Positions 21,701 to 59,904 are shown, counted from the first letter of the whole stretch. The stretch is DNA of 62,918 nucleotides, filler included, from Phoronis australis (GCA_002633005.1; 5 parts of 5 records of this genome joined end to end with filler, not necessarily neighbours in it), one strand, 5' to 3'. Notes: a model not told the origin generated them from the letters alone. Translations and numbers: made by a program.

Positions 21701-24700
21701 TTTCCACACGTTCAGACTTATTTCAAATACATAATAGAATAACAACGTTGGCTCCCACAATACACAAAACGACTTTTTTAAAAAGAACTTCTAGTCATTT
21801 CCTTCAGAAAGATGAGAGCTTCAAAATGCCAATGTGTATAAAAAACGCCCCTTTGCTCTGTTTCGGAAAGTCTCCAAAATTACTTCAGTTGACGTTCAGT
21901 CAGAGGGACGCTCTTTCCGAAATCTCAAGTAACTTAACTGGTCTGTTTTCCGTTGACACTACTCAAAAGTGTAGGAATCTGGGACAGGGACAAACGCCAT
22001 TCATGGAGAGGGCAGCACCCCAGCTTCCCATTTAAAGCTGTATTTTGCCCTGTTTAGCTGGTTAAAGCGAAAATTCAAGTAGGCCATTACTCTAAAACGT
22101 CCAGTCTCTACTTGTTTGTGAAGGCTACATGTATAAAAGTCTCGAAGAAGTTAAAATAGGATTGCAAACATCTGTGGCTGGTGGCATGAAATAGTCCCAA
22201 ATAGGCACTCAACGTAAGTCCCTAAATCTTTTTTCCGTGTTTGTGCCTTGATGGACTCACAGATGCAATATTTTTCTATCATTTCATCTTTGTTATGAGA
22301 TCCTGTTTGATTAATGATATTTTGTAATAATATTACTAAACACTGACCCCAGAGTTCATTGAAAATAAATAGGAACTCAGTCCTTAAATTGGGAGTGTTG
22401 CATGAAAAGATCCCGTTATTCTCGATAATATGGACAGTTCACTATCCACGTCAAAAGTTGACTTAGTAATGAAACTAAAACAATACAAGAAAGGGCAGCT
22501 GATGTTTTCACAAGTCCAAAAATACGCAGTGGATTTAGGGAACTTAGTCGAGTCCCTATTTGGGACTGTTTCATGCAACCGGGCACTGAATCTCACAGCC
22601 CATACAATCATTTGATGGCCAGCGACTGAATACGACTCAGTGGTAGATTAGTTTCAAAATAAGAACAAATGATATGAATGGTGTTACAGAAGTGTAGTAA
22701 ATAGGCAGACAACGTTCACTAGGTGGTGGCGATGAACAAGGGCCACACTTTTCAACATGCGGTGCTTAGAGCCGCATTATCATGATCAGGACGATCTTTT
22801 AATGAAAACTCACCTTCTCACACGGTTTTTTGTGACTCCAATATGAGAGTACGGCGCTGGCTGGCGAGGTAACAAAATGCCTCTCACGTCACCCGAACGT
22901 TTTTCAGTCAGTTTCGGGCTGTAAACATTACGCACACGATACTCTGCCACCATCTACTACTCCTAAATAGATTTAAAAGATGTTTCTGTTATTTTCAGCT
23001 GGCATGTTAACTAACCAAAAGAAACGCAGTGCTGATGCTTTACCTGGTGAACAGTATTATTCGTTTTTTCGGAAAATCAATGTATTGAAATAATTTGTCT
23101 TTCAGATGAAATGTGAATGTAACAACTGTTGTCACCAGTATACCTCCTGATTCACATTCAAAATTTGTCTTATTTTGACGGCGTCCAGTTTAATTCAAAA
23201 ACTACTGAAACTGTAGTTTTCCATTTTTCTAGTTATTACAAACAAAATTTTTCCTGAGGAGACTTGCCTCGGTCATTTTGCAACTATAAAAGTTCTTTCA
23301 TTAGAGACCAACAAATTCAAAAAATTAATTTATGGTATCGTTTCAAATGATACAGGAAACTTTCAAAATATTACACACAGATTGAGTTCAGTTCAATACT
23401 TCCTGCCTTCCTCCCTCCCTCCCTCACCCACTCCCTCCCTCCCTCCCTGCCTCTCTCAACACCCCCTCTNNNNNNNNNNNNNNNNNNNNNNNNNNNNNNN
23501 NNNNNNNNNNNNNNNNNNNNNNNNNNNNNNNNNNNNNNNNNNNNNNNNNNNNNNNNNNNNNNNNNNNNNNNNNNNNNNNNNNNNNNNNNNNNNNNNNCTC
23601 TCTCTCTCTCTCTCTCTCTCTCGTTCTCTCCCTATCTCGCATTAATTGAACGGAAATCGGGTATATTCTATATCAATTTGTGATTAAAAAGTTGTATCGG
23701 AACACCTGCCATTGTCGGATTAGTCGTGCGCGACTGTCGTTTAAGAAATGTCATACGAATAATCGAGGTGTGCAGACAGGGTTGGATGATTAAAACTAAT
23801 TCTTATTCTGGCGAATTCATGACTTGTCATACACTTGGCGGTAGACCTACATCTATTTTTGGTTACCGTGAAGGCTTAACCATGTATCTTCTGTCACAAA
23901 TGAAATTAGTAGCAACAATTAGTTGAAATTTTCATCAATTGGCTGGAAATCCTTTTTCTTCAGAGACCGTGCTTACACAACAGAATAATTAGCGAGAGAG
24001 GAACGCGTGCTCTGACGTCATGGAGGGTGTAGTCTTAGTATCGATCTTACATTAGCGTGACTCCGTGTGGTTCGCGTGCAGTAGTGAAAGTTTTGTCGGA
24101 GTGACAACATGAGAGTGACACTGATTGTTCTTAGCACCTGGTTGGTGAGTATAGCTGCAGCATGGTCTGGAGAGCGGACTGCGGCAAAGGCTTGAAGGAT
24201 TAGAGGTGTCCTTAGTTGTGAATACATTTTTTTTCCTGAAGAAGAAAATTTGAAATGAAAAAACTTTAAAAGTTTGCTAATACTTGATTTGTAAAAGTCG
24301 GTTGTACTTTTTTACTAAGTTACGTTTTAACTCTATATAGTCTGTGTTACTGAACCATTGTAAAATGTCTGACGTGCCTGCTTTTTCAAAGGCATACATG
24401 CACATGTACCGAGGATCACGTAGGAATCGGCCTAAACTGTTTTTGACATATATATCTTGTTGGAACAAAAATTATGTCAGTCAATGTGAGAGACACGATT
24501 ATCTTCTTAGTGGGTTCCGTTGCGCAGATTTTGGGCAGCATTGATTTTGTAGTGCGTGTATAGGTTGGTACAATAAAATCAAAGCAAAGTTAGTATACGA
24601 TTTCAAAGAATAAAATGCTTGAGGTCAGGAGCAGTATTAAATTCAGATTTAGCAACTCTTTTAAGATGTATTTCGCTTTGATTAGCTGGCTAAGAAAGGA

Positions 24701-25761
24701 AATCGAAATAGGCGTTTTACTCTAACAAAAGCGGACCTTACCATGATAGGATTATTTATTTTCATTAGCAACTCAAGTCAATGCGTATACACCTTATTCA
24801 CACAATTAGGTTTTAGAAACAATGAATCAGTTCTGCGCGTAATCACAGTACAAAATGTGATTTTTTCGCGTGCTTCATTATATTTATGTCTCAAATGCAT
24901 TGTTTTTAAACCTAAAAAGAGGCTCACTACTAAAATGACGACTGTGTGAATAAGGTGTGTATGGCGCCATTTTAGAATTCTTAATTTCGGGGTTGGCCAA
25001 TCTGAATTAATTCTGAAACGTTTTCTTGAGTCGTTGATGGTTTCGATGTTGTTGATAGGACACTATCACGGTAAAAAATACCTTGAGAGGGATACATGCT
25101 ATTCATTAAGCGTACACTTTGGGGTTGACACCAGACGTACAGAAACTTACTACGTCATTGCTTACGTCTTCATTACTATTATAAACACAGCCAGGCCAAT
25201 AAGCCGGGCTCAGCAAAATAAACTTCTTTTATGAATGTTTTACAAACGTGGTATCCGTTCTCCGGAAGCGATATTTATCCATGAAACAGCATCTCTTAAG
25301 TGATTAGCTGCCAAAAATGAAAACAGAGTTAAGTCACTTTAGCTCTTCACGAAATCGGTATTATTATATTTCTCACGGTGATTTCCATTACCAACAAAAA
25401 CATAGAGGCCTTCAGTGAATCAAGAAAAGCTTTTCCGATTTTAGGGGGGGGGGGGGGNNCTGCCAAATCTTCAAAAATACCCTTTGCCTGATTTGGGCTA
25501 CCTACTCACTCAACAACACAAGATGAGCGTAATGTATTTAAACCACACAGCATTTCGATAAAGAATTCAACATCGGCAATTAGCAACTATAGGCCATTTG
25601 CCGAAAATCTTGATTTTATACCCGTTCATAACATTGCTTCCGCCTTACAGACATTGCAGTTTTCCCGTTTTCATGCTGACGTCGCACGTGAACTACAAGA
25701 AACCGTTAAAACAGTGTTAGCTTATATAATATATATATATACAGCACACATCACGAATTTT

Positions 25762-26875: not shown

Positions 26876-29156
26876 TTACAAAAATGCCACATTTCAATAC
26901 CACGTGTATTTTTTCCGTTTGCCTTCCGTCGTCATGAAGCAGATTGAATAAGTGTTTTCACCAAACTTAATTTTTTGTTGATTTAAATGTTTTTACGTGG
27001 TTACTTACTCTAATAAAACGTTATGTTTTTATTTTTTTATGTATGTGCTTGGTATCGTACGATTCTGGTAACAGACTTGTGCATTTAAGTACCATTATTA
27101 AAAGTTCAATATAAGAGAACCCTGCGAGATCACTTGGTACTTCTTTCTTATTCATAACCCTAGAATAGCACTTTGTTTTGATGAGTCAAATTTGACAATA
27201 ACGAATGAACTTTATTTTTATGAATATTCATTTCGCATTTCGTCATTCTTATTGAGAATTGATACAGTTCTTTTTGTTAACTTACCAGCATTTTTCAGAA
27301 AATCTCACTGCCAAAAAGTGCCGTGAATCAGGTTTCAAGCTCCTCAGCTTAGTTAAACTATACATTAACAAACCATAAAAATGGTTCCAAGTGATCAGTG
27401 CAATGAGCGCTGCCTGCTCACGGCTGGTAAAACGGGTATCATGCAGCTCATGATTTAAAGAAAGGTCTCGTTTTTTTAATTTTGGTCGGGTATAAATTAC
27501 GCAAAAGACCTTGAAATCCTACGAAACACTCCTACCTTACAAATCTGACAATTCTTAGTCTCAGAAAATTTGAGCACCAGGCAAAAGATACTAATGATGA
27601 ATTTCCGGTGATGATAATCACCCGCTTTGTTTATTTACTTCAAAAACACAATTTGAAATTCTTGGTAAAATGAACCCCATTCGAGTAAGCACCATGTGGG
27701 TAAAAGTACTTCCTGTTCATGGAAATATGACAGGTTTATTTCGCAATTTTAATAGGTATTTTCCATGAAAATGCTTGCAGAGGTTATCATCAAAGTGAAA
27801 AATCCGCACAAGAAGTACCACACATCATGTCTGATCTACCTGTAATGTGAGTGAGCCAGTTTTTGGATATGAACTCACCCTGTACAGAGTGGGCGTGCTT
27901 GGTATGTTGGTTCGTGGATGTGCAGCTTATAATGATCAATTCCTTGTGTGAAATCAATGCTCACTTGGTCATCGACAGGCACACGTGTGATACAGTGCTG
28001 NGGCGGACTTTTTTGCCCAATTCGACCCCCCCCCCGGGTGCCCCATGATCAACAGGCATTCTTGACAGTCGTATCATAGGATACTGTAATGAATAGAAAA
28101 GCAAACAACTACCATCGAGTGTTGTCATCCAGCATGTAATTCCAGAACAAACAACTCAAACCATGCCTACATGTATATGGGATTAACGTATTTTAACCAC
28201 CTTATCTGCTACTGCCCACATTACCTAGTTACATTTGTTGACATCGACACCAAGAAATAATATCGGTACCTCCATATTTGTTAAATACTATTCCAATCAT
28301 TCACCGCTAACACGTCATCGCCAACTCGTATGACTGGAAGTACACCTATGGATTTGCTCGTTAGGCCGCTTGAACATCGCAAAAACGATTACCTCAGCTA
28401 AAAATAGAAATACTAGTGCTAGGAGAGTCTCGTGTCCATAATTCGCGATCTTGGGGAGCTCAGTATGCATCACCTAACTATACAGAAATCAAATTACTTC
28501 CATGTGCTCCTCTGCCATGGTCGAAAGAAAGCTCGAGGGCCCCAATCTAAAATTGACCCATTTCAAAGTTGACCCATCTTAGGGTTATCCAATTCGCTTG
28601 CTCCAATTGTACCCTGGCACTAATTTTGCTGATTTAGTTGATGTAAACATTTTTGTATCTTTTGAACGGTCCTAAAAGAATGGACTTTGATGTTCTTCTG
28701 GCCAAGCAAGTTGGCTATGACGTACTGATGGTGAATGTTTGGAATCATATTAAGAACATCTGCTCGTGCTGATAGTACATATTGGTGCCATGTCAACAAA
28801 TGTAACTGGTTAACGTGCGCCGGTCGCAGATGAGGTGTGTGAGTACGTTACTCCACGATATGCGTGAATTGAGTTGTTCCCGAAGTGCCTGGTGGGCGAC
28901 CATATTGGACAGCAGATGTTCACCACTATGGTATAACCTCGAGCGGCTGATAGAGGTGCCAGCGCTTCCATCGGCTTTTTATGAAGAGAGGTGACCACGG
29001 TGCATTTCTCGTGAAATTGAGTCTTTGTGGGAACTTTATTACACAAAGACAAACGGAGCTCCAGATTTGACCATGATATTATTGTCGGAAGGTTTGCTGC
29101 TGAACAAAGAACTGGTGTCAAGTGAATCCCTGCAGTTGTGGCTATGAGGAGATCAG

Positions 29157-29821: not shown

Positions 29822-30691
29822 CAAACAGAACTTGAAGAAAACAGTCCGGATTAGCTTAATCGCACAACAATGTCTTGTATCTGCAAAGCCAGTGGATCGG
29901 GGTGCAAGCAGCTGAATATTACTGCAAGAGAGAACAATCTTCGATAGGGCTGAATCACTCGGTGAGAAGTCGAAGAAATTGTTGCTCTTCAGTCAGTGTC
30001 AGTGGACTTGGATAGGGATGAGTGATTGTCATTTTTTTCAAAATTATTCACACTAGCGTAAAATTTTGAATTATTTTGAACAAAAATCAGCCAGAAACGT
30101 GTATTTTGTAATCTACAGGACTTCATTTTATTAAACTTCTACAAAATACACTTAACTACTTGTTTTACTTGCGGTAACCCCTCTTGCCACAAGTGGACTG
30201 ATCCTGTATTATTTAGCTGGGAAATTTATTGACCCAGTTGCAGCAACCCAACATGAATATCACTGCTTTTTGGCTGAGATTACATAATAAGGTCTATATT
30301 CTTTCTAATTTTTGATTATTTTTATTTGTTTATGTTGTTGTGCATACTAATAAGTCTGAAATGTAGTATTCAACTGCAGGTTGCTATGGAAATTTTAAAG
30401 ACACTATCGGCACTTTTTGTCGGCTATTTTCCTTGACTTTTGAAAGCTCTAAATTTTCGCTTTCCCCGACTAGAATTGGCAATAACTCGGTCATTTGTGA
30501 AGTTAAGGACATGTATCATACCTCAAAATGATTAGAAAACACTGTATTTTCAGAAAAAATAATTTAAAAAATGACAAACCCCGACTTAAGACTCATTTTG
30601 TGGTGGTGGGTCACTGTCTCCTCCTGTCACCCCTATTCGTAATGGTTGAGTCGACATAATTGACCTCTGCGGAATGAGGTGGTGGCACTAT

Positions 30692-30706
30692 AGACCCTAT
30701 TCACGC
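30692..30706 (+). repeat. Left terminal inverted repeat
   Basis: AGACCCTATTCACGC, preceded by AT. Confidence 0.88.
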
Positions 30707-30758
30707 CGACAGGAGGCGCGTTCCAAAACGAGGCTCGCTACGATAGCTCCAGTAAACA

Positions 30759-33342
30759 ATGGCTAATCGGCATTGTTGTGTCCCGCATTGCTCGAACGGC
30801 GATAGGAATAATGCAGACCATCGACTCTCTTTTTTTACTTTCCCCAAGGACGCAGATGTTCGGAAGCGTTGGGTAGTTGCCATTCGTCGCGACGAAGGGA
30901 AATATTTTCGGGTAAGATTGGTAAATGTTATCGATCGATTGTAGCTCCTCGTCAAGTATTGTTAGACTACCCTAGGCTAGGCTCGGCAGGGAAAACTCAG
31001 TCACGCTGTTCACTTTCCAATTAAATTCTTTGGTATTGAAGTTTTCAAGAATGTAAAGATATTGGTCCTTGCCCATTGCAATGTTTTACTATTTGGAAGC
31101 TACCCCTATAATGTCAGAGGGGGGCCTATTGACGGTTACATGGCCCAATGGACAAACTCGATTAAACAACTAACAGGGAGTTGTGCTGGAACCACTTGAC
31201 GAAAAATGTTAGGTGTTGTACTGATGTAGTAACTTTCAGCAGTTGACTGTCAAGTCATTTGAAACAAGAATGTACCTGTCAGAGCTGTACCTCGTATATA
31301 ATTATGTCTTTTGATTAGTGAAGTAAGACATCACTGTCATTGTATGTTTCATAGTTGTACATATCTCATCTACTGCATCTTTGTATATATACTCCTCATC
31401 GGTGAATAGCACTTGTTTTGTACTTTCCAGTACTGGTGTAAGCTAATGTTCTACTTACTTACTTATAAAAAAGTTTGATCCCATTTTGTCACAGCTAGTC
31501 TCACTGCGTCTAAATGATAATACATTGAAGCGTAATGCACCACTTTCAAAAAAGGAAAACAATAACCATGCTTGCTCTGCCCAGTTAATTAAAGCTCTAA
31601 AATGAAATGGATTTTCAGGTTATGGTTTTGATGAATGAACTGAGTATCTTCATTTTAAAATTCAACTTGGCCCAGATAGATATATGAAAATCAAAACACA
31701 AATGAAATAGGTGTAAGGATTATTAAAACCTTGAAAACAGAATTGATGGTCAAATAATTTTTGTCTTCAATTACCAGACTGATTCTTTATTATAATAAAA
31801 ACGAATTTGAAGAGCATCAATTATTCTTACAGATCAATGACAAATCAACTGTCGTCTGCAGTTCCCACTTCAAAAGTGGGGACATCCAGAAGTCGATCAA
31901 TGGAAGAAGACTACTCAAGGCTGGAACTGTTCCCTCTATCTTCAAGTGGTCAAAACCAATACATGAAAGAACAAGAAAACATACCTCACTGACCAACACT
32001 TCATTAACCTGTGATACCTCATTTACTTGCGATACCTCATTTACCTGCAATACCTCATTTACGTGTGACAGGTAAGGATTGATTTTTGTGAAAAGTAGAT
32101 GATGACGATAAGTCTCTCAATTTGTTTTTGACATTTGCTTTGTGTTAGTTGCCTCCAGGATAAATTACATTTGACTTACTATATCTCATCATTTTATTAC
32201 TAGTGGATGAAACATGTACATAATTTAATAGTCACTATTTGTTTTCCAGTGAACCATCAACATCAGCTTCCAAAGAAGAGCCTGTTGCAGCCATGGATTT
32301 TCACGATTATGCTGCTCAACCTATTTTGACAACACATGAAAAACTTCAGGCTGCTCTAGAGTATATTGAGAGACTGGAGAAGCAGAATAAGGAACTGGCC
32401 CTAGAAAGATTCTGTGTTAATAAATTTTGTCATGATGACAAAATGATTCGGTTTTACACGGGCTTTGCTACGTATTCACATTTAGAGGCAGTTTTCAGAG
32501 CTCTTCAACCAACAGCAGTGACCATGACAAGGTGGTCCCAAGTCCAAAGGCAAAGAAAAACCGATTTAAACCTCAGGGAGGACTCTTTCCGCTGCGAAAA
32601 ACTGAACCTCTTCAACCAGTTTTTCATGTTTTTGTGTTATGTAAGACAAGGATTGCCCGAATTTGACTTGTCCGTTAAATTTGGAGTGTCACAGCCAACA
32701 GTCAGTCGCATTGTTATCACTTGGGCAAATTATTTATATGTTGTGTTGGGTTTGATGCCAATTTGGGCTAGTAGGGCGAGTATTGACAGGATGATGCCAC
32801 AATGTTTTAAAGACACATATCCTAGGACACGAGTCATTCTAGACTGTACTGAGGTTAAAACTCAATCTCCCTCATCATTATTTATTAACTCACAAATGTA
32901 CTCAAACTACAAAGGCACAGAAACACTTAAGTGTCTTGTTGGGATTGCCCCACATGGTGCTGTCTCATTTGTCAGTGAACTGTTTACAGGCAGCATTTCT
33001 GACAATGAAATTACGAAGAGGTCTGGTATTCTGGAGTTGCTTGATCCACTCGACGGAGTAATGGTGGACAAAGGGTTCACCGTTGACAAAGAGTTGAGAA
33101 CCAGAAAATGCCACACTGTGATACCACCCTTCCTAACGAGTTCCAGAAGCCAGTTTTCAAAGCAAGAAGTGGAGCTGACACAGCAAATTGCCCGTCTCCG
33201 TATTCACGTGGAGCGTGCCATTAAAAGGGTCAAAGAATACAGACTGTTCGATAAAAGCATTTCACTCAGTATTGTTGGGTCAGTAAATCAGTTATGGACT
33301 GTGTGTGTCCTGCTCACAAATTTCCAGGGTCCACTGTATTGA
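30759..33342 (+). CDS. THAP-domain DDE transposase (DDE_Tnp_4/HARBI1-like), 3 exons join(30759..30911,31833..32071,32250..33342), 494 aa, uninterrupted
   Basis: GT-AG introns with compatible phases (0 and 2). The THAP signature CVPHC...FFTFPKD...W...VCSSHF...TVPSIF is split by intron 1. An HTH region (DLSVKFGVSQPTVSRI) precedes the catalytic motifs ILDCTE, VMVDKGF and RIHVERAI, plus YSNYKG. Confidence 0.93.
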
Positions 33343-33365
33343 AAATATCCTAAGGATAGCCTTAA

Positions 33366-33724
33366 AGGAGAATGCCACCAGATTTAATTAGTTTTTGTTA
33401 CTGTATTAATCGGTCTATATCCACATCAACTTGTATTTTATATGTTATCATCATATGTTAGAGGAAGCTTTATTTAGATGTATATACATTATTCAAATCA
33501 TTGTAATTGTACACCATTTCCCTGTACGGTTCTATGGAAGGGGAACATGGCTTTGCAGCCTCCAATGAGTAAGTAGATTTGCAATTTTGCTGCTAATTTA
33601 CCAAAACACTCAAGTGCACATTATTTCTCTGGTTCACTAGTCTAGTCCTCTCCTGAATAGAAGTTTAGTTTTCAAAATTTTCTAAATTGATACATAATAC
33701 GTTGTTTTTTGGTGGCATTCTCCT
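33366..33724. mobile_element. Kolobok-like MITE nested in the ISL2EU spacer
   Basis: TTAA-AGGAGAATGCCACCA...TGGTGGCATTCTCCT-TTAA: perfect 15-bp TIR with TTAA TSD. Related sequence at 39941-39987 and 54946-55726. Confidence 0.85.
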
Positions 33725-33783
33725 TTAACCTAGTTGTTTGTACAATAGTCACATTACTTAACGAACTCAGTTTTTGGCCACAG

Positions 33784-34183
33784 TAAGATTAAAAACCGGA
33801 CGATCGTTGCACAAATAAAAAAGTTCATGTTCAGTCAACCTCAGAGAAAAGCAACATATATAGGCATTGTGTTAGCAACAATCGCCAAGCCAGTTCAGTT
33901 AGTATTATCTGCAGAGAAGCCTATAAAGAATTACCATTAAAGTGTCATTGGCCATTCTGGGCCAGCATGCTACTGATTCTCTGAATAACTATGGTTATGG
34001 CCAGCTGCTGACTATATTCCTTGTATCTCTCACTTCACATTATGGATGTTACCTGAGCTGTATCTTTACACTTGTTGTCCTAAATTGTAAATATGATCCT
34101 GATGGTGTTTAATGAATAGACGAAACTTTGATTGAACATGAAGTTTTTTTATTTGTGCGGCGATCGTCTGGTTTTTAATCTTA
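33784..34183. mobile_element. Second nested MITE with ~50-bp TIRs
   Basis: TAAGATTAAAAACCGGACGATCGTTGCACAAATAAAAAAGTTCATGTTCA (33784-33833) is inverted at 34133-34183. Confidence 0.75.
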
Positions 34184-34206
34184 ACGAACTCGCTTGAGAG
34201 AAAACT

Positions 34207-37069
34207 TTAGTTTTTACAGATATTCTTTAGGTGATGATTGAAATAAAATGTCTCTAAGCTGTCTTTAAGCAGCCGAAAAAAGTCCTGGTCAAATAAAATT
34301 CTTTCTATGTGATAGTCATTTTTACACCATATCATGAAATCGCACCAAGGGGCCCCGGTAAGACCCATCTGACCCATTACTTGAAAATAATACGCATGTT
34401 TTTTTTTTCAATTTGTAGTGACCATTAACAAATTTCAAGCATTTTGCTTCAACAAAGGATTGCACTTGGGGACATTTGATTTCTAACAGTCCAAATGGCT
34501 CGTTCTGTTCACGACTGTCATATACACGTCGGTCAGAAGAGCAGCCAAGGTATGGCAATGTCCAGTTAATCACAAATCCAGCCCTGTACACATTATTACC
34601 AGTTACAGTTGCATACTGCTCAGCAGCTTTTCCCTCATTTTCAACTCCGTATTTCATGGCTGCAGTTTGAATGCTCTTCTTGTTTAAAAGTTGTTCCGAA
34701 AGAACATCAAAGTCACCTTTTCGAGAGTAAATCGACTTAAAGTGTGAGGCTGTCAGTCGATACTTGCGCAATTCATGTCATTCAGAACACTTGGCTTGTT
34801 CTCTAGTTGACTTTTCGTAATCAACTGATTGTTCAACAGTTATAAGCAGACCCTGGTGAAACTCAGATTCTTCTGTTGTTAAACGATCAAGATCAAATCG
34901 TTCATAATGAGGTAAATCATATTGCACAATCTCAGGGGCATTAGGAGTTTGGATGATGTCCTGGTCCTCAGTTACGGTCGGTTTGCGTTGCTGGTATGAG
35001 AGCACACACCCTCTTGGCACGTCACCAAACTTCGTATCGCAATAAACAGTGGGATCACCGGACAGAAGAGTTAAAAACTGCATGCTGGACAATTCAGGAT
35101 TACTGTCTGCAATGTTCTGTAGTTGCTCTGTAAAAGCAACATCTCTAAGAGGGATTGTTACTGGATTATATATCGTCGATTTTACACCGTCAATATTTCG
35201 CCGTTTAGGAACCTGCTTCTGACTAACATTATGCACTCTCAGTTCACTAACAGGCTGGGGTGAAATACCCTGTGACCGTGGGATATGCCACTTCTGAGGC
35301 AAAGAGGTTTTAGTGACAATTGGTGGTATGCTCTTCAGTTTCAACTTCTGGTAGTGGGCAATCTGGTACAACAGGGCTGTCTGATGGTTACAAAAGCCCT
35401 GCCCTGCCTTGCATGTACACGAATGAGATCCAAACCTTTCGTCGTCATTTCGAATGTCGAACTGTAAAAAGGAAAATAAGAGCATATCTTAAATAACAGC
35501 CTCGTTTTAAAACTGTTGACAACCATTATAATGATGAAAGCTAATCAACCGTGGTAGACTCATAATAAAGCAAGTTAGGACTGTACTCACGATGGTGGAT
35601 TGTTGGTCGAAATTTCTCGGAAATTAATTTCATTCTAGTTGTGAGTACACTCCTAACATAATTCATTATGTTTACAACTGTGTTAATTTTTCTTGCAATA
35701 TGCTGTGGGACTGTGTCTATCCCATACGAAAAAAGGCAGTCCATAATCCCAGATAAGGGTGATGACCAATTTAAAACTCTTCTTCTTTGTCTTCTTCTTC
35801 CGGAGATCAACAAGTGATTGAAGTACCGATTCTTATATGTTGGCGCATGTTAGTGAATAAATTTGAACTTTTTGTAACACAAAATAACAAAACAAAGTGC
35901 GAGTTAGTGCCAGGATAAAAACAAGTTTTACTATTTAGTGGGTAAGATTGATGTTTGAGATGCGACTCCTGAACATCAGTATTGTTTCTGATGAAATGGC
36001 ATGATGTGGGAGTCTATTCCAAAGTGAAACAGTACATGGGAAGAATAGTATGCAGTGCGGATATGTGACCTCTCATAGAGAGTGGGAAATGCATGAAATA
36101 TAAATATGTAGGAGTGGAGGGTATGTGTGGCAAACATTTTGTGTACAGTCTTGTACATGAGAAACAGGTTTGTTTTTTTGGAGAGTGGGTCATTTGAGAG
36201 AATGTTAAGCAGACATAACAGAGGAGTATCTGGAGCGATCATTAAGGACGGACTTGACCATTCTATTCTTTCTATCTTGTCAATATTGAAGCATGTGAAG
36301 GGATCCCAGAAAGAGGAAGAATATTCAAGTTTGGGACGGCAGGTAGCCGAGAGTTCAGTTTTCCTCAGAGGTGACTGTCTATGTAAGTGTTCTACTATAA
36401 AGTATTGGTAAAAGTGACCCAAGGTATGGGACTGAATTAATGCATGTGCTCAATTTTTAATACTGCTGTGTTAAAAACTAATGCCTGGCTTAAGCAATAA
36501 CAATGCACGAACACAGTGACATACGTTTACTTTGTGGATCACTTTTTTAGAATATGAAGCATGACATGTTGCCTTCACATCACAACCACCATTGTTTACC
36601 TTTACTGCAAGAAATATATTTATTAGATATGAAGTTGACAAACTTCAAATGAAAAACTTTATAATTAATACCAACTTGAAGGCCTAGACTATTCGTGATG
36701 ATGATATCCTTGATCAACAAATGTAATTTGCACACAACAACAAAATACATGAGCGACCACTGTCAAATATATCTTCAATTCGTCAAAAATATGAACAGAT
36801 GAGTTGGTTCGTGTAGAAAGCAACTTCATCAACAATTTACAAGAAGAAACGTAACCCTGCATTCAACATATGCCGAAATCCATAACACGATTGTCATATT
36901 TACCTTTCATGTTTCCAATGTAGTTTTCTGAAAAGAACTTATAACCTTTCGTCAGGCAACTCTTTGGGGCATTGAGTTGCCCTCTAACGTATTTTTCGAC
37001 GTCTCCGTGGCTTATTATTGGAACATTTCTAAGATTCAATGTCCAGGTTGGACATGAAGTACCAGCCAT
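34207..37069 (-). pseudogene. SWIM zinc finger + YqaJ-like viral recombinase/lambda-exonuclease-family nuclease, complement(join(34207..35461,36525..36604,36904..37069)), ~499 aa if repaired
   Basis: Phase-compatible GT-AG exons (phases 1 and 0). SWIM motif CTCKAGQGFCNH, then TSLPQKWHIPR. YqaJ motifs TREQ...RLTASHF, MKYGVENE, LGCSSDR, LLEIKCP and YYFQVMGQM...WCDF. In-frame TGA at 34778-34780 where W is expected, and one extra base in the T10 run at 34399-34408. Confidence 0.88.
36000..36345 (-). mobile_element. Decayed LINE 3' fragment (CR1/L2/Jockey-like) in intron 2 of the nuclease gene
   Basis: RPKLEYSSSFWDPFTCFNIDKIERIE resembles the post-RT motif RPxLEYxxxVWxP...IxxLExVQ. Confidence 0.6.
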
Positions 37070-37139
37070 TTCACTAGCGCAATGTCAACTTCCGCATTGT
37101 TTATCGCAGTGAGCCTCGCTTTAGATTTTAATGGCCGCC

Positions 37140-37154
37140 GCGTGAATAGAGTCT
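37140..37154 (-). repeat. Right terminal inverted repeat
   Basis: GCGTGAATAGAGTCT, followed by AT. Confidence 0.88.
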
Positions 37155-37567
37155 ATAGGCTTACTCATACTTTCTGGAATGATGAAATTTTTGCGAGGAT
37201 CAACGGCGTTGGTATTTCTTGCATATATTTGTAAGTTTATCTTATACATACGCTGTTTGTCAAGCGAAAATACTAATATTCTTACGCAAGGAGGTAAAGT
37301 ATAGATGACCTCTGCTCGTGTCAGTCAGAGTAGCTGAAGGTGACCTCTAACTACAGTGTATGTAATCTTTGTTTACTTCCGCAACTGAAGTTAGTTGAGT
37401 TGTTCGCCGGTTTCACATTATTAGATCGTTTTGCAACCAAAACTCAGGTGCGCTATTCGAGATGTATTTTTCTGAGAATGTCAACATGACACAAGATTTT
37501 ATTATTTACAATAAACTTATTTGATTACACTTTCGGCCTATATACATACAATGGGGGTAGTCTGGCN

Positions 37568-38001
37568 CGACATAATTGACCTCTGCGGAATGAGGTGGTG
37601 GCACTATAGGCTTACTCATACTTTCTGGAATGATGGAATTTTTGGGAGGATCAACGGCGTTGGTATTTCTTGCATATATTTGTAAGTTTATCTTATACAT
37701 ACGCTGTTTGTCAAGCGAAAATACTAATATTCTTACGCAAGGACCTCTGCTCGTGTCAGTCAGAGTAGCTGAAGGTGACCTCTAACTACAGTGTATGTAA
37801 TCTTTGTTTACTTCCGCAACTGAAGTTAGTTGAGTTGTTCGCCGGTTTCACATTATTAGATCGTTTTGCAACCAAAACTCAGGTGCGCTATTCGAGATGT
37901 ATTTTTCTGAGAATGTCAACATGACACAAGATTTTATTATTTACAATAAACTTATTTGATTACACTTTCGGCCTATATACATACAATGGGGGTAGTCTGG
38001 C
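37568..38001. repeat. Duplicate of the transposon flanks without the element (empty site, probable alternate haplotype)
   Basis: Matches 30652-30691 fused directly to 37157-37566. Differs by 2 substitutions and a 16-bp indel and begins after a single N at 37567. Confidence 0.92.
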
Positions 38002-38221
38002 CCGTCATGAGTAGTTGCTTTCCATGGGCATGCAAACAGACTTAGAAAAATGAAAGACAACACTTAGATGATCAATGATGAATATAAAACTGACATGCAG
38101 CGCCCCACACCGGGAGGCAGTAATCTAGGTGAGCTTGAATGAATGATTGTGTTGAAAAGGGTTTTCAGTGGCAAAATAATACACCCACATAATTTGAACA
38201 TTGAGGGTTGTGCAGTGTCCG

Positions 38222-38421: not shown

Positions 38422-41194
38422 GTCCAATCGACTTCTGGTTATCGTTTTTACCATGTGATCAACCGAATTCAATAGTTAATGTTGAGAACGTCTCGAGCAA
38501 ATTAGGTCAAAGAAAGAGCGTTACACGGCAGTGTCGTTGCCATTACCGACGATACCAAGAGGAAGAACAGCCATTTGAGTAGGTAAAATGCAACATTTTG
38601 ATAATTTTCAATGAGTATTTGCTATTCTGGCTATTTAGGCGATTTGGGCCGGAGTATAGGAGCTTCATACCGTAGTATAGAATTACCTGAGCACAGGAGC
38701 TTCATAAATGTTTCTTCGGATCTGTACATATTCAACCTGCATTTTATACCATCAACTATATTGCCTTTCAGTTTTGAAACATGCACACGAAACAAAGTAA
38801 CCGAGACTCTATGTGCCGTTTTTCCTAGTCAGTTACATCGCCCTGGATGCCGCAGCCATACAGGGGCGATAGAACATCCCCACAAAAAGTTACAAATTTC
38901 AAAATACAAGAAATAAAATCAAATGAAACATGCATATATGCACATAGAGTTATAATTAACACATACCTGGAGACGATTCAGTCAAGATAATTTGAACAAA
39001 TCGATGAAAATCTGCTGTCGCGGTTAGCTCGAGTTTCTCTTACCTTGTGTCAGTTTGAGGAAGTTATATGAAAACACGCATGTTGACGAATAAAACGTCC
39101 AAGGGACACAAATCTTACAAATTTCACCCGATACCATCCCATTCTATTTTGCAAGTGTCGCGCCAGCGAGCGTCACGCGCTTCGCCCAGTCTCACGCTAA
39201 CCTTTTTCTGACTCACCTGACTCACTTGAAATACTTTGTGGTTATCGCGAGCGTGGTGAAAAAGTTAACGATGACAAAATAGTGTAGTTGGAATTCTTCG
39301 CCAAAGTTTTCTTAATTGTCGTAGCTATACTTCATGGACTGGAAGATATGTGTAGAATTAGAAAGAGACACTGAAGAAGGTAAACGCTTTTTTAAGTCAT
39401 AGTATAAAGTGTAGAATGTATTTTCGACGAAGTGAAAACTCTCAATCGGTGACCGGATTTGGTCTACCGCCCGTTTAAAATACACGGACGAAATTCGTAC
39501 AGGGGCGATGGGAATTTGTATAGACCGTAACTGGCCATCCGAGGGGCTACGTGTTGCCTACGTTTTTCCAAGACGTTACAGTTGACAATTGATAGATTTG
39601 GACGGGTCACAAAAGCAAACCAACTGGGAGGTTTTAGTTGTTCAACTGACATGTGTTTTAGGCTGGCCGCACATTACCACGATGTCACTTGAATTTTACA
39701 TTTTAATTCATTGACAATTTTGGGGTAGCACAACTATGTATGACTTGATCGTTTTAATTATGTCACATGAGTCAAACTCTTGAGGTCACCACTTTTATTG
39801 CTTGGAACTTCAAGTTCTGTCCTGCGTGTTTTGTTTTAGTCACGGCTACTAAACAGTGTGGCTCTTATTATCGTATCTGCCGTCAGGTGTCAGGTAAAAA
39901 AAAAAACTGAACTTGCTATTACCGACTGGAACTACTCGATCTAAATTGATACAAAATAGGTTGTTTTGGGGTGGCATTCTCCTTTAAACCGTTCATAGTC
40001 CTCAGTCCATTTTCTTTTTTTTTTGCTGTAAAGCTACTGTAACCAATGACTGCCGAGTTTACCAGTGATAGATAAGAACGCGTGCTACAGAATGTTACCT
40101 GCGTGTTCGGACACGCAGGAAACCAGTGAGGTCAGCTATTAGCGGCCTATGCCTTCTCTGGCCACCCAATTTTGAAATTCTACCATTTCGTGTGATATAA
40201 AAATAAGCCATGCCCGGCTGTTATTAGCATTATCATTATTATTATTTATTGTCACCAGGACAAACTACATTCATCATAAGAAACAGTACTGTGACGTTTT
40301 AGGTCAACCTTGACTAATGGAACAACATATCTGAGTAGACCAGTACAGACCTTTTTTAGTGATAAAGTACATCAGGATCATTCTTTGATCGGACTATAAG
40401 ATCACATGCTAAAAAGGAAAGCGTTTTCATCCAAAAACTCCAACGACGTTTCATTTGTATCAAACGCTGAGTGCCAAATTGGGCACGCTAAAATTGGGCC
40501 TTGCCCCCCCGGCATCAACCCAGAGAGACTGATGTTTCTTGAACCCTAAAATGTGCCTGAAGTTCAGACCAGTTAATTTTATAGGGGTCTATCCTCCGAT
40601 AAATGTAAATAAAAGCGTGTAGGTGCCACAACATCCCCCAAACACCACAACAAATACCCTACAAACTTCAGAACACCCCCACAATAGCCACAGCAGTCTA
40701 AAACTCTCTATAACTTTCCCCACACTCGCCACAACACCCCCAGAATCTTCACAACCCCACCCCATTGTTTGAGCCTTCTCCTGTTCAATGAAACCGGATC
40801 TGACCTTGGTGGTTAACATCCTGCTCCTTTGTTAACTACTGAGTGCTGTTTTTCCTCCGGTATAACAACAGACTTAAAATAGCTTCTGTAGCAGAACTAC
40901 TTTAGATATCAAGTGTCATAGAATTTCGGTAACAAAAATGAACTTAAGTGATGGTTCTGCCAGGGACATGTTCTTTCGATTTGTTAAAAGGGTAGGCCTA
41001 CTAAACCCTGTTTAGATCATCTCAACCCCAAACCTCGTTCTGTCACCTGCTAATGAATCATTGGCGTCAATCTTGAAAGATAACAGGAACAAAACTCATA
41101 CTCCCTATCGCACAAATTGGATACGGTACTTGGTGGGTCCCAAAGTTGCCGTGTAACGTCATCTGTCTGTAATGCTTGGTAAGGGTGTTATAAG

Positions 41195-46843: not shown

Positions 46844-48579
46844 TTTTTATGCGCCCACATGTTTATAAGTAGTCGCATATTGCCGTCACTCTCTGTCTGG
46901 GCGTCCGTCGCTGTATCTCCTAAACCCCTTACAAGATCTTGATGAGATTTGTCAGACATGTTCCTATGAAGCTGAAGACGGATGACTACAAATTTCGGAC
47001 CTCTCCAACTACAGGTGTGCCCCCTAGTGGCAATTTTAGTTTTTACGCTTACCTCTGTATCTTCGGAAGTTCTCAACGGATTTTCATAAAATTTGGCAGT
47101 TATGCTTACATTAGCCAGATGACGCAATCCTCCCGTTTTCGGATGGATTCAAGGTGTTTTGCGCCACCTAGTGGCCATATTTACTGTTTTTGAGTCTGTG
47201 TTTTAGCGTCCGCACTTCTATCATCCAAACCGCTTTAGGGATGATTTTGATAATTGGAATATGTTCTTACTGTGAAGAGGGCGGCTGACGATGATTTTCC
47301 GACGGCTTCGACTACTATGACCCCTCCTAGTGGCAGTTTTATTTGTTTTTGCGTCCATGGCTGTATCTCCTCACAAACCCCTCACAGGATTTTGATGAGA
47401 TTTGGCAGATGTGCTCCAATGAAGCTGACAATAGATGAAGACGAATTTCGGACCTGTCCTAGTGGCAATTTTATTTTTTACGCTTACCTCTGTATCTTAG
47501 GAGATCCTCGACGGATTTTCATAATATTGGGCAGTTAGGCATCTGCTAGTGAGATAATAACATGCTCTCATTTTCGGACTGATTCGAGGTACTTTGCGCC
47601 ATTTTTACTGTTTTACGATTCTGTTTTCGGCGTCCGCCGTTCTATCAACCAAACTGCTCTAGGGATGATTTTGAAAATTGGTGTGTTTATTCTAACTGTA
47701 AAAAGGGCAGCTGACGATGATTTTCGGATGAGTTCGACTACTATGGCACCCCTAGTGGCAGATTTGTTTGTTTTTGCGCCCAGGGCTGTATCTCATGAAT
47801 GCTCTACAGGATGTTTATTGAATTTTGCTGGTGTATTTATATGAAGTTGAAAGAAGAGTACGACGACTTTCGAACGGATTGGATTCTCGGTGTGCCCTCT
47901 AGTGGCATTTTATTGTTTTTTACGTTTACCTCTGTATCGTCAAAGGTTCTCAACGGATTTTCATATAAAATTTAGCAAATAAGCATTAGTGAGGTGACAC
48001 TATCCTCTGGTTTTCGGTTGAAATTGAGGTATTTTGCGCCACCTAGTGGCAATTTTTACTATTTTGTAGTCTGTTTTTCGGCATCTGCCCCTCTGTCAAC
48101 CGAATCACTCTAAGGATGATTGTGGAAATTGGCATGTACATTCCTAATATGAAGAGGAGGGCTGACGATTTTCTGATGACTTCGAGACAGTACTGTGGTG
48201 CCTCTTGGTGGCAATTTTTTGCACCCATAACTGTATCTCCTAAACACTACAGGATGTTTAATTAAATTTAACAAATGTATTCATATAAAGTTGACAACGC
48301 ACAACGACGACTTTCAGACGTATCTGACGACCGCTGTGCCCGCTAGTGGAAATTCATTTTTTCCGTTGTCCTCTGTTTCTTTGAAGTTCCTTTACCGATA
48401 TTTATGAAATTCAATAAGTGGCTTTCTATTAAGAATGATGGCAAGTTCCGTTTTCGGATGGATTCAACGTATTTTGCTCCATCTAGTGACCTTTTTATGA
48501 TACAAATAAACACCCCTAGAAACACACCGTTTGCGGTCCATTCGTGGGCGCATTTCAACTCTCTGCGTTGCTCTTGTTT
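46844..48579 (+). mobile_element. Helentron-associated (HINE/DINE-1-like) element with an internal tandem array
   Basis: Starts TTTTTATGCGCCCAC, with the subterminal inverse GTGGGCGCAT at 48544-48553, a short CAAC..GTTG hairpin and a CTTGTTT end. Has a GTCY-type microsatellite remnant and ~145-bp internal repeats containing CTAGTGG. Confidence 0.75.
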
Positions 48580-54945: not shown

Positions 54946-55726
54946 AGAATGCCACCGATTTAATTAGTCTTTTTTTACCGTCTTAATCGGTCTATATCCA
55001 CATCGCCTCGCAAACGGTCGACCTTACCTTGCCGACAGGGTCGCGTTAACCCGTGAGGAAGGTGAGAAACGACGCAGCGACGTCAGAGGTTCATTTGCAG
55101 TGTGAATGCCGCTGTATTGCGGTGCATCGTTTCCGCTTGTCCGGACTATGCAGCTGCGAGGAAAGCGGGTTTATCGTTTTTTCGACTTTCTCGAGAGTTC
55201 GAAATGCTTAGGAAGTGGCTCGCGGTAGTGAAGAATGAAAAATACGCTGTTAATACCAAATATGAGGCCGTGAAACATCTCCGTGTCTGTGGACGGCAGT
55301 GAGATACAATTTGTAATGCCTTTGGAGTATTCGTGGGTGCAAATGTTTTGAGAAGCCAGCCATGAATAAATCACTGCGTTACCGGCTTCAGATGCTATAT
55401 AGGTAGTTGACGGGCACCGAGGCCGTGTGATCGCATGCTAAATCAGTGTTTGCTGACAGAAAGCTGTTGTGAAATAATCACTCGATTTTACATGCTATGG
55501 TCACATGTTAGGGAAATCTTTGTTTAGATATACAAATACATTATTCACATCATTGCTACTGTACAACTTTTGCCCTGACGGTCCGTAAAAGGGCAACTTG
55601 ACTTCGCGGCGGCCCCTGACAAGTAGATTTGAAATTTCGTGACTAATTCACCAAACTAATTACGTGCACATTATTTCTTTGGCTCACTCGTATCGTCTTT
55701 TCGTGACTGGAGGTTTAGTTTCCAAC
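54946..55726 (+). mobile_element. Longer Kolobok-like deletion derivative with a THAP remnant
   Basis: Both ends are homologous to MITE 33366-33724. The extra internal ~480 bp encodes RCIVSAC...LSFFRL...KWL...LRVC (ORF 55102-55302). The 3' end is interrupted at a TTAA by other sequence. Confidence 0.7.
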
Positions 55727-57150: not shown

Positions 57151-57538
57151 ACATGACCATTCCGTTTACTCACTGAAATTCACCAACAGGTGGAGTGATC
57201 ACTCACCGGTTAGTGTGTCGTGATGGGAAATTCTTGCGTCTATTTTATTGTCCAGTATAGCAGATGACGTACATGCCGGAGGTAAAGAGAGTTATGTCTG
57301 TCAGGTGTCGCTAGTGAATAGCAACGTCATGGCTTATGCCTTAGATCACACATCTCATCCAGTGAGAACATTACAGAGTTGGACGTCCACGAACATATGT
57401 GATTACACAAACTCTAATTTGTTACCTGTGACATCATATTTCAGAGTTAATCACACTTCTGCAATACGTAAGAAAAGAGGAGCTTAGTAATCACTCCACC
57501 TGTTGGTGAATTTCAGTGAGCAAACAGAATGGTCATGT
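57151..57538. mobile_element. MITE with ~53-bp TIRs in a GTF2H4 intron
   Basis: ACATGACCATTCCGTTTACTCACTGAAATTCACCAACAGGTGGAGTGATCACT is inverted at 57486-57538 with 3 mismatches; no clear TSD. Confidence 0.75.
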
Positions 57539-58077: not shown

Positions 58078-59904
58078 CTAGAACAGGATGTAACGCAATC
58101 CTGTCAGTGTAAAGATTGTTTAGAAGTGCAAAAAACTTCCACCAGGTGTCTCACTTTTATCATATACTTGCATGTACAGTGGAAATCAAAACACTTTAAA
58201 ATTAAAATTAAGAAATTGGACTGCATCGTAGTCATTAGATCTAATGAAACGGGGAGATAAGTCTTAATTATTTTCAACACGTACGTGGCGTTCCCATACT
58301 ATAACTATGTCCTTAGTCCCTAGTCACCTTTTCATGAGGCCCGAGTGTAGTAATATCTCGACCACATCACGACTGACTCCATCCGCTGCCTCACGTGATC
58401 CGACCATGAAGTGAAGTATACACTGAAATAACAAAGCTCATTCATTTTATTAAAATTACTGAAATTTACTATTTTATTAGTAATTACTTCAATTCACGTT
58501 TAACCTGTAAAATCAAAACCGTATTTTGGAGACACAATACAGAATCACCAATGTCACTGTGATCTCAACAAATGTTAAAATTATCATTTAAAAAAATAAA
58601 ATTGCAATATTGTCATTCATTCAACTCTGACTTAAGTGTAAGTATCATAATTTCCAAAATAAGCCACTAATTTTTCGCATCATTTACTATGTCACAAGAA
58701 GCCAAAAAAGCGTCAGAGGTCAGTTGCAGCCCTGCGTTCGTTGATAGTTAATCAGTTTCAATACACAATGCTTCAAGTACACATACTGTAGTGTAAATAA
58801 TCAGCCTATGCACTATTTTTGGCTTATAGAAGGACAAATTTGTTTGGCAAAATTGTTTCAGAGTATCGTTCACTGTTTATGTTCATTAGACCCATAAAAA
58901 GTGAATGGCGTAGTCATTAGATTAAATTCGTATTGCTTGTAATTCGTATAATATCCATTTTTCACCAATTTATGCTCCGGGCTGTTCCAGCAAAATCTGT
59001 GTGGGAGGGGGGGAAGGCAACTGAAATAAAAATTTACGGGTGGTTGCGTTTGATTTAAATTCAAAATGGCTGGTGGTCGTACTTCAAGAAAATAAAAATT
59101 TACAGGTCGTTGTTGTTTCAAATTTGGCTTCAGAGCGGTAGTATTTGTCGCCGCGCTTAACAATAACAAGAGCCGCCATTGAAAATCACACCATGCTTTA
59201 CCCAGATGCCCCGGCAATGTTGACAATTTATGTTCCTCCGAAACATAAAGACTTCCGCTTTCCGAGGTGAACGTCGTCTGCAACGCCGCGGTAAAAAAGG
59301 AATTTGCCGAGGAAATTTCATATCAAATCCGATTTTTTTTACGCGGAAATATTATAAAAAAAGCAGAAAGCACATTTCAAAAAAGCGGAAATCCGCGTTT
59401 CCGCGGAAAATTCCAAGCCCTGATAAACAATCCGCACAGAATCAAAAACTGAAACAAAAATGCAACTTGCAAAAAGCTCCGACTTTTTCACTCCCTCCGA
59501 TCTCCTCATCGGCATGCCCATAACACCATTTAACCACAGGTGCTCGAATTTTTCGACAGCTAATAACCATATAAAAGAAACATATCTTTTCTTAGTAATG
59601 AATGACGTTAGTGGTGATGGAGGAACAGATAAACACAAGCGCCTGTGCAGTCAACCACAAGAACAAAAAAAATTACGGGTGGTTGCATTTCAAACTTATA
59701 AAAAATTACGGGTGGTAGGCTGAAGAAATAAATGGAAAATGTGGGTGGTGGGTGCGAAAAAAAGGTGCCTTCCCCCCCTCCCATACAGATTTTACTGGAA
59801 CAGCCCTCCAAAGATTCTCTGAAACCAGGGACAAATAAAAGTAAAAATCCATCTTTGTCAATATGAAATGCTTTAGCAATAAGAAAAGTGAACTGACCAT
59901 TGCC

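What the first reader, a model, noticed from the sequence alone, without database searches (positions are those of the whole stretch)
30692..37154. Complete two-gene transposon coupling a THAP-DDE transposase with a SWIM-YqaJ (phage-type exonuclease) partner
Seen in sequence: TIRs enclose two convergent three-exon genes, reconstructable with phase-compatible splice sites. One is a 494-aa THAP-HTH-DDE transposase and the other a ~499-aa SWIM + YqaJ nuclease. Established: this pairing defines ISL2EU-type elements, where the YqaJ protein takes the place of the Myb/SANT partner of classical Harbingers, and YqaJ belongs to the lambda-exonuclease PD-(D/E)xK fold used in phage recombination. Inference: the nuclease may resect or process donor or target ends. 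The class is known, but this family and the nuclease function are uncharacterised as far as I know.
Basis: partly seen in the sequence, partly recalled or inferred. Interest (0 to 1): 0.85.

Follow-up and report, generated by a model that had tools for sequence, protein, structure and literature searches.

The report
Half-broken ISL2EU transposon with nuclease gene
This is one copy of an already described kind of animal jumping gene (ISL2EU) whose cut-and-paste enzyme gene is intact, while its second gene, for a protein predicted to chew DNA ends, is broken in this copy; relatives keep both genes together, so the nuclease likely helps the element spread, but its job is untested.

Summary
The element is real: 30692-37154, 15-bp inverted ends (14/15), an AT target duplication shown by an empty copy of the site in the same window. 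Gene 1 splices to a 494-aa THAP-HTH-DDE_Tnp_4 transposase with no stop. Gene 2 is a SWIM-like plus YqaJ nuclease, but this copy has an in-frame stop, a frameshift, and Ser at a Pro invariant in 82 of 82 homologues, so 'complete' holds for anatomy, not function. Two small unrelated elements sit between the genes. The pairing is general: 47 of 47 related loci with 1 kb or more downstream (28 clusters) carry the convergent nuclease gene, with catalytic and 5'-phosphate-pocket residues conserved and a lambda/LHK-Exo fold. This is the ISL2EU group of Han et al. 2015 (PMC4482050), which calls the second gene's function unknown. Small departure: ends are AG/AC, not GG; the target is not A|AT|T. Most likely the nuclease resects the break left by excision; untested. 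The scan met this kind before on other DNA. New member of a known kind; interest 0.3.

The parts
30690..30691 (.). left target-site duplication, AT
   Evidence: empty site at 37568-38008 holds one AT; reads from other copies stop matching at 30690 with mixed flanks, agreement 0.40-0.47
30692..30706 (+). left terminal inverted repeat, 15 bp, begins AG
   Evidence: (I14)
30726..30745 (+). left subterminal motif, inverted copy at 37102-37121 (17 of 20 alike); likely THAP binding site (inferred)
   Evidence: sequence; part of it recurs in the small element at 24787-24962
30759..30911 (+). transposase exon 1 (first half of THAP)
   Evidence: Pfam THAP 1.2e-10; GT donor at 30912
31833..32071 (+). 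transposase exon 2 (second half of THAP, then an 18-bp tandem repeat in the linker)
   Evidence: Pfam THAP 8.4e-6; repeat family D3
32250..33342 (+). transposase exon 3: HTH_Tnp_4 and DDE_Tnp_4, triad D329, D404, E452
   Evidence: PHIS spacing pattern matched once; 1025 homologues at E<=1e-20, best 59-61% identity
33366..33724 (.). nested non-autonomous element, TTAA duplications and AGG...CCT ends (Kolobok-like by the rule in PMC9587614)
   Evidence: (I11); many contigs with mixed flanks at 33362 and 33728
33768..34182 (.). second nested non-autonomous element, begins CAG, flanked by an 8-bp direct repeat (33760-33767, 34183-34190), right tip about 17 bases short; hAT-like (recalled rule)
   Evidence: (I2, I9); loose ends at 33767
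34207..35461 (-). nuclease exon 3: SWIM-like motif (35384-35419), linker, YqaJ/lambda-exonuclease domain with D (34532-34534), E (34481-34483), K (34475-34477); broken by a stop (34778-34780) and an extra base in 34399-34408
36525..36604 (-). nuclease exon 2 (donor at 36524 aligns better than 36530)
36904..37069 (-). nuclease exon 1
   Evidence: N-terminal 82 residues align with full-length homologues
37140..37154 (-). right terminal inverted repeat, 15 bp
37155..37156 (.). right target-site duplication, AT
37568..38008 (+). empty version of the insertion site, starting right after a single N; most likely the other allele laid in tandem by the assembler
   Evidence: direct repeats D8, D2, D1; contig pieces mixing both flank versions

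Best explanation
This is a non-autonomous-by-damage copy of a two-gene ISL2EU cut-and-paste transposon: an intact THAP-HTH-DDE transposase gene that is predicted to cut the element out and insert it at AT dinucleotides, and a SWIM-YqaJ gene, broken in this copy, whose intact form likely acts as a 5'-to-3' exonuclease on the broken donor ends left by excision. Steps: (1, shown) ends, AT duplication, empty site, both genes. (2, from family knowledge) the transposase binds the ends through THAP/HTH and makes staggered cuts; Harbinger relatives cut through the duplication and leave a donor break (PMC4561436, abstract). (3, inferred from conserved residues and fold) the partner is a metal-dependent nuclease that grips a 5'-phosphorylated end. 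(4, inferred) it resects the donor ends, steering repair from end joining towards copying from the sister chromatid, which would put the element back at the donor site and turn a cut-and-paste move into a net gain of one copy; aborted copying would give the many internally deleted derivatives. (5, inferred) the SWIM-like module would keep the nuclease at the transposase complex.
For: Identity of the element (about 0.95): against PMC4482050. The partner is kept: 47 of 47 loci with >=1000 bases downstream of the transposase have the gene, always downstream and on the opposite strand; 28 of 28 clusters at 90%. It is under purifying selection: L067/L077 dN 0.043, dS 0.332; pN far below pS in the more distant pairs. 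The two genes diverge together: Spearman 0.73 over 14 non-redundant loci, 0 of 2000 permutations reach it (kinship alone would give this). Catalysis is kept: over 82 homologues D 82/82, E 82/82, K 81/82, Q 78/79; the LHK-Exo 5'-phosphate pocket (Arg12, Thr17, Ser19, Ser100; PMC3239189 passages) maps to R 77/81, T 69/81 (S 10), S 75/81, S 78/82. Fold: profile hits LHK-Exo at 3.6e-18; the model of homologue P0126 matches LHK-Exo Z 18.4, rmsd 2.4, 174 aligned and lambda exonuclease Z 18.2, rmsd 2.8, 193 aligned. LHK-Exo digests dsDNA from 5' ends (abstract). The sister group Spy transposes in HeLa cells with transposase alone (PMC11304231 passages), so a PHIS transposase can cut both strands by itself, which points the nuclease at a step after excision. 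Homology-dependent repair makes mPing transposition replicative (PMC10288884 abstract). Deletion derivatives exist: joints 31852 to 36689/36696 in X5-X8 and 31850 to 36683 in X1.
Against: No experiment on any ISL2EU nuclease was found; steps 4 and 5 are inference. Deletion derivatives are common in one-gene transposons too. Near-universal retention of the gene fits a required step in transposition better than an optional copy-number boost. Sequence cannot tell exo- from endonuclease or DNA from RNA: KSHV SOX and mimivirus R354 are also hits. RNA reads gave no cover of nuclease exon 3 between 34224 and 35179 and almost none of transposase exon 3 in about a fifth of three runs, so expression and splicing are not shown. 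Even the near-identical second version in this sample keeps Ser at the invariant Pro, so it may not be active either.
Confidence: 0.4

Rival explanations
1. The nuclease is a required second catalytic subunit: it cuts or trims the non-transferred 5' strand at the element ends, as TnsA does beside the DDE enzyme TnsB in Tn7 (recalled), or removes 5' flaps at the new junctions.
For: Gene retained in 28 of 28 clusters with catalytic residues intact; same PD-(D/E)xK superfamily as TnsA (recalled). Kolobok lineages also carry lambda-exonuclease-like or DEDDh nucleases (PMC9587614 passages). Earlier scan notes report an XPG/FEN1-type 5' nuclease in the same slot in algal relatives (unchecked).
Against: Spy, the sister clade, moves with transposase alone and Harbinger needs no nuclease (PMC2836001 passages). 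The conserved 5'-phosphate pocket suggests a free end as substrate, not an internal nick. None of 30 SWIM-module proteins scanned had an XPG domain (30 of 150 listed, of 2996 hits).
Confidence: 0.3
2. The second protein works like Harbinger's Myb partner: it binds the ends or the transposase and brings it into the nucleus; nuclease chemistry is secondary.
For: It holds the same genomic slot; Han et al. call it a DNA-binding protein; Harbinger ORF1 does this job; the N-terminal SWIM-like module is conserved.
Against: The transposase has its own THAP and HTH domains. Metal ligands and the phosphate pocket are near-invariant, which a scaffold would not need.
Confidence: 0.15
3. The nuclease counters host silencing or clears excised or extrachromosomal nucleic acid, like herpesvirus shutoff nucleases, and has no part in end chemistry.
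For: Weaker matches to KSHV SOX and EBV alkaline nuclease; Pfam Viral_alk_exo co-hits.
Against: The closest profile and structural matches are dsDNA end exonucleases; no evidence here on RNA targets.
Confidence: 0.1
4. The gene pair is a host-domesticated module or an assembly artefact rather than a mobile element.
For: An N and a duplicated flank lie next to it.
Against: Terminal repeats, AT duplication, empty site, three sequence versions in the DNA contigs and many end-sharing derivatives; gene 2 is decaying, which a domesticated gene would not.
Confidence: 0.02

Closest known systems
[quoted passage not shown] 2014 PMC4122938, 2015 PMC4482050 (families such as ISL2EU_DRer = IS4EU-2_DR, ISL2EU_BFlo = IS4EU-1_BF, ISL2EU-4_CGig)
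   Same: AT duplication; THAP + HTH_Tnp_4 + DDE_Tnp_4 transposase (494 aa; listed ones with all three domains 426-576 aa); second ORF with YqaJ (about 499 aa; listed 200-647 aa); short terminal repeats; about 5.7 kb without the nested elements; animal host likely.
   Different: Ends are AG here and AC in 5 and GC in 1 of 6 cleanly resolved relatives, against 'usually GG'; target is A|AT|T in 0 of 7; the SWIM-like module is not mentioned in the three ISL2EU papers (0 occurrences); this copy's nuclease is broken.
PIF/Harbinger (Harbinger3_DR, Ping/Pong)
   Same: DDE_Tnp_4 transposase, two element-encoded proteins, many non-autonomous derivatives.
   Different: 3-bp duplication and a Myb/SANT partner; transposase without THAP.
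Spy
   Same: Sister clade by transposase tree (PMC4122938, PMC11304231).
   Different: One gene, no duplication, AAATTT target.
KolobokE (PMC9587614)
   Same: A eukaryotic DDE transposon with a lambda-exonuclease-like PD-(D/E)xK nuclease.
   Different: Different transposase superfamily, TTAA duplication, nuclease placed downstream of the transposase domain.
LHK-Exo (PDB 3syy) and phage lambda exonuclease (1avq, 3slp)
   Same: Fold, metal ligands and 5'-phosphate pocket of the C-terminal domain.
   Different: Viral relatives are short single-domain proteins (median ORF 216 aa); 0 of 80 viral loci carry the SWIM module or the transposase. Trimer ring not tested.

Membership tests
ISL2EU (Han et al. 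2015) | AT dinucleotide target-site duplication | tested here: met
   empty versus filled site; read ends at 30690; AT on both sides in 6 relatives
ISL2EU (Han et al. 2015) | Transposase with THAP, HTH and DDE domains and the PHIS residue spacing | tested here: met
   Pfam; D(19-29)K(29)D(18-40)D(11-19)P(18-28)R(3)E matched at D329-E452
ISL2EU (Han et al. 2015) | Second ORF with a YqaJ exonuclease domain | tested here: met
   YqaJ 4.4e-13, 5e-12; gene present but disrupted in this copy
ISL2EU (Han et al. 2015) | Terminal inverted repeats of 6-259 bp | tested here: met
   15 bp, 14 alike
ISL2EU (Han et al. 2015) | Tendency, not a rule: ends 'usually GG' and target A|AT|T | tested here: not met
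   AG ends and T|AT|A here; AC or GC ends and no A|AT|T in 6 relatives. The paper words the first as usual and the second as speculated from its families, so I read this as a subtype difference
ISL2EU (Han et al. 2015) | Transposase falls in the ISL2EU clade of a tree with named Repbase members | not testable with these tools
   no Repbase/Dfam sequences on hand; no tree with named references was built
PIF/Harbinger proper, Pangu, NuwaI, NuwaII | 3-bp duplication and Myb/SANT second protein | tested here: not met
   2-bp AT; second protein is YqaJ, no Myb hit
Spy | No duplication, AAATTT target, single gene | tested here: not met
   two genes; AT duplicated
Lambda-exonuclease / YqaJ nuclease family (second protein) | PD-(D/E)xK metal ligands, 5'-phosphate pocket and fold | tested here: met
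   the window copy has Ser for the Pro before the catalytic Asp
Lambda-exonuclease / YqaJ nuclease family (second protein) | Processive 5'-to-3' dsDNA exonuclease activity, ring-shaped trimer | not testable with these tools
   needs biochemistry
SWIM zinc finger (second protein) | C-x-C-xn-C-x-H motif in the SWIM fold | tested here: inconclusive
   motif invariant in 18 of 18 aligned; no Pfam hit for the window, 4 of 8 homologues below cut-off, one relative above it (P0292); profile hit to ZSWIM8 E 0.14 and structural match to ZSWIM8 Z 7.4, rmsd 3.3, 97 aligned. Likely a divergent SWIM

The most novel reading that the evidence does not exclude
ISL2EU elements are two-enzyme transposons in which a phage-type 5' exonuclease, tethered by a SWIM module, is an obligatory catalytic partner of the DDE transposase or drives donor-site gap repair that makes transposition replicative; this family belongs to an undescribed subclade with A[CG]AC ends and a relaxed N|AT|N target.
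Probability: 0.35. Interest if true: 0.65.

Novelty: new member of a known kind. Interest (0 to 1): 0.3.

Why it matters
The element itself is ordinary for its group. The open question it touches, stated in PMC4482050, is what the YqaJ protein does. The data here show it is kept by selection as an enzyme that grips 5'-phosphorylated ends. If it resects the donor break or cuts the second strand, that would be a transposition route not yet shown in eukaryotes and would explain why unrelated transposons (ISL2EU, KolobokE) picked up the same nuclease. This copy is a poor substrate for the test; intact, nearly intron-free relatives found here (for example L057, L067, both ends and both frames whole) are better.

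Tried and rejected
No whole genome is held for this window, so copies could not be counted; contig depths are not copy numbers and were not used as such. No RNA holder was listed for the stretch; three RNA runs of the same species label gave no joints at the predicted introns, so splicing stays unconfirmed. Other readings of the palindromic CTATAG site were rejected: 0-bp, 4-bp (TATA) and 6-bp duplications do not fit the read ends at 30690 or the variable base before AT in relatives. A model of the window's own exon 3 was poor (pLDDT 55.6) and gave no Foldseek match at E<=0.001; the full-length homologue P0126 was used instead. A transposase-nuclease complex prediction returned no fold and no verdict; binding is untested. 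No viral contig encodes a relative of the transposase. Rfam found nothing in 30000-38100. The XPG-swap lead from earlier notes was not reproduced among 30 SWIM-module proteins (18 YqaJ/Viral_alk_exo, 10 no family, 1 SWIM only, 1 GTPase-like plus weak SWIM), but only the top of 2996 hits was seen. Synonymous sites were saturated in nearly all family pairs. A first splice attempt was off by one base and corrected. The inverted-repeat search covered 29 loci; ends were clean on both sides in 6, offset or cut in 6 (L004, L046, L052, L057, L059, L060), doubtful in 1 (L028), and not found in 16.
Full report
Observation. The element runs from 30692 to 37154. Its ends are 15-bp inverted repeats, 14 bases alike, with a second inverted motif about 35 bases inside. 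An inverted match of this quality is reached by 3 of 300 random end pairs of the window, so the ends alone are only suggestive. The window supplies better proof: right after a single N at 37567, the sequence repeats the 42 bases left of the element joined directly to the right flank (D8, D2, D1). This empty site has one AT where the filled site has one on each side. The site lies in the palindrome CTATAG, so 0-, 2-, 4- or 6-bp duplications are formally possible. Reads from other copies stop matching at 30690, the A of AT, with mixed flanks (55-68 reads in each of three runs, agreement 0.40-0.47), and in six relatives with both ends clean only the AT is constant. The duplication is therefore AT. 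The empty site is most likely the other allele laid in tandem by the assembler (inference from its position at a contig junction and from contigs that mix both flank versions), which would make the insertion recent.

Gene 1. Exons 30759-30911, 31833-32071 and 32250-33342 with GT-AG introns give 494 aa and no stop. Pfam finds THAP split over exons 1 and 2, HTH_Tnp_4 and DDE_Tnp_4. The PHIS spacing pattern of PMC4122938 (passages) matches once, with triad D329, D404, E452. The spliced protein aligns end to end with mollusc, fish and lancelet proteins at 47-51% identity. Exon 3 has 1025 homologues at E<=1e-20, none above about 61% among the 120 listed.

Gene 2. Exons 37069-36904, 36604-36525 and 35461-34207 on the minus strand total 1501 bases; the first 82 residues align with full-length homologues. 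This copy carries an in-frame stop at 34780-34778 and one extra base in the T run at 34399-34408, and has Ser where 82 of 82 homologues have the Pro before the catalytic Asp. DNA contigs of one sample, possibly the source of the assembly and so not independent, show three versions: one like the window, one about 99% alike and one about 90% alike. The 99% version (X1, X2; 9 differences and 1 gap in 1143 bases) reads a tryptophan codon in place of the stop; five of its nine differences are synonymous; the place of its gap is not listed, so its frame is not shown; it shares the Ser. X3 holds the window's version with the stop, so the stop is not an assembly error. About a fifth of each of three RNA runs gave no cover of 34224-35179, almost none of transposase exon 3 and no joints at the predicted introns; 93-97% of laid reads ran on into other sequence and come from related repeats.

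What the second protein is. YqaJ hits at 4.4e-13. A profile of 25 sequences finds LHK-Exo at 3.6e-18, mimivirus R354 at 2.7e-5, lambda exonuclease at 0.007 and KSHV SOX at 0.009. A model of homologue P0126 (pLDDT 77, about 96 over the nuclease) matches LHK-Exo (Z 18.4, rmsd 2.4, 174 aligned) and lambda exonuclease (Z 18.2, rmsd 2.8, 193 aligned), and its N-terminal part matches ZSWIM8 (Z 7.4, rmsd 3.3, 97 aligned; a middling score, but the same protein as the weak profile hit). Across 82 homologues the metal ligands and the 5'-phosphate pocket described for LHK-Exo (PMC3239189, abstract and passages) are near-invariant. The C-x-C-xn-C-x-H motif is invariant in 18 of 18 aligned sequences although Pfam SWIM misses the window's copy. 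Viral relatives match only the nuclease domain; 0 of 80 viral loci have the SWIM module or the transposase.

Co-occurrence. Of 80 metagenome loci found with the transposase (the best 80 of 479), 47 have 1000 or more bases downstream, and all 47 carry the nuclease gene downstream on the opposite strand; 5 of the 33 shorter ones show its tail, 28 are too short to tell. The 47 fall into 28 clusters at 90% identity, all positive. Among 14 non-redundant loci with both frames open, the two genes diverge together (Spearman 0.73), as expected from joint descent. The one informative mid-distance pair gives dN/dS of about 0.04 for the transposase and 0.13 for the nuclease. Inverted ends enclose both genes in 12 of 29 loci examined. 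Joints that skip about 4.8 kb inside the element and a 176-bp element with similar ends at 24787-24962 show non-autonomous derivatives.

Mechanism. I commit, at about 0.4, to: the transposase excises and inserts the element; the nuclease resects the 5' ends of the donor break so that repair copies the element back from the sister chromatid. For this: the fold and phosphate pocket fit a free 5' end; Spy, the sister clade, moves with transposase alone (PMC11304231, passages); Harbinger relatives leave a staggered donor break (PMC4561436, abstract) and become replicative through homology-dependent repair (PMC10288884, abstract). Against: retention in every family fits a required step better, which keeps a TnsA-like second-strand or flap-trimming role (recalled analogy) at about 0.3. 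A Myb-like scaffold role (PMC2836001, passages) is less likely given the catalytic conservation. None of this is tested.

Comparison with what is known. PMC4482050 (passages; Table S2 and Fig. S1 text) defines ISL2EU by an AT duplication, a THAP-HTH-DDE transposase and a YqaJ second ORF, lists 25 families in 14 animals, and says the function of the second ORF is unknown; PMC9179366 (passages) repeats the description. All core features are met. The differences are small: ends AG here, AC in five and GC in one relative, against 'usually GG'; A|AT|T in 0 of 7 sites; and the SWIM-like module, which those three papers do not mention. KolobokE carries a similar nuclease (PMC9587614, passages). Searches for ISL2EU with YqaJ or exonuclease, IS4EU, Harbinger with lambda exonuclease, and YqaJ with SWIM and transposon (listings seen) found no functional study; Repbase Reports and subscription journals are outside the library. 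The scan's own notes hold four earlier findings of this kind in other genomes.

Verdict. Observation confirmed, interpretation supported at the class level, new member of a known kind. The copy is half dead and ordinary; the lasting interest is the untested nuclease, for which intact relatives are the better material. Interest 0.3.

Noticed in passing
window 24787-24962: 176-bp element with AT on both sides and ends ACACCTTATTCAC, like the ends of the big element and its relatives, with the same internal GAGGCTCACT motif: a non-autonomous element of a related ISL2EU family.
   Followed up: partly
window 33366-33724; pieces also at 54946-55725 and 39940-39987: TTAA-flanked element with AGG ends (Kolobok-like), abundant in DNA contigs and RNA reads.
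   Followed up: partly
window 33768-34182: Element starting CAG with an 8-bp flanking repeat; its right tip is about 17 bases short, perhaps deleted between short repeats.
   Followed up: partly
window 31998-32068: 18-bp tandem repeat in transposase exon 2 encoding (T-S-F/L-T-C-D/N)x4 in the linker after THAP.
   Followed up: no
window 3177-4304 (-), inside inverted repeats at 2724-2770 and 6928-6974: Reverse transcriptase frame (RVT_1, 7e-38) lying within a 4.2-kb span bounded by 47-bp inverted repeats.
   Followed up: no
window 22171-22589, 28180-28854, 57151-57538, 58979-59806, 35561-35670: Further inverted-repeat-bounded small elements; the last lies in intron 2 of the nuclease gene.
   Followed up: no
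window 46901-48482: Tandem array with a unit of roughly 450 bases at about 70% identity.
   Followed up: no
L057:788-4945, L067:1101-5269, L046/L048/L055, L061: Compact 4.2-5.5 kb relatives with both genes in long open frames and longer terminal repeats (26-80 bp); L042 and L061 have an extra N-terminal segment on the nuclease frame that looks like a SAP-type motif (recalled label, not tested).
   Followed up: partly
P0345: The SWIM-like module fused behind a septin/GTPase-like stretch (all hits below cut-off); may be a gene-model artefact.
   Followed up: no
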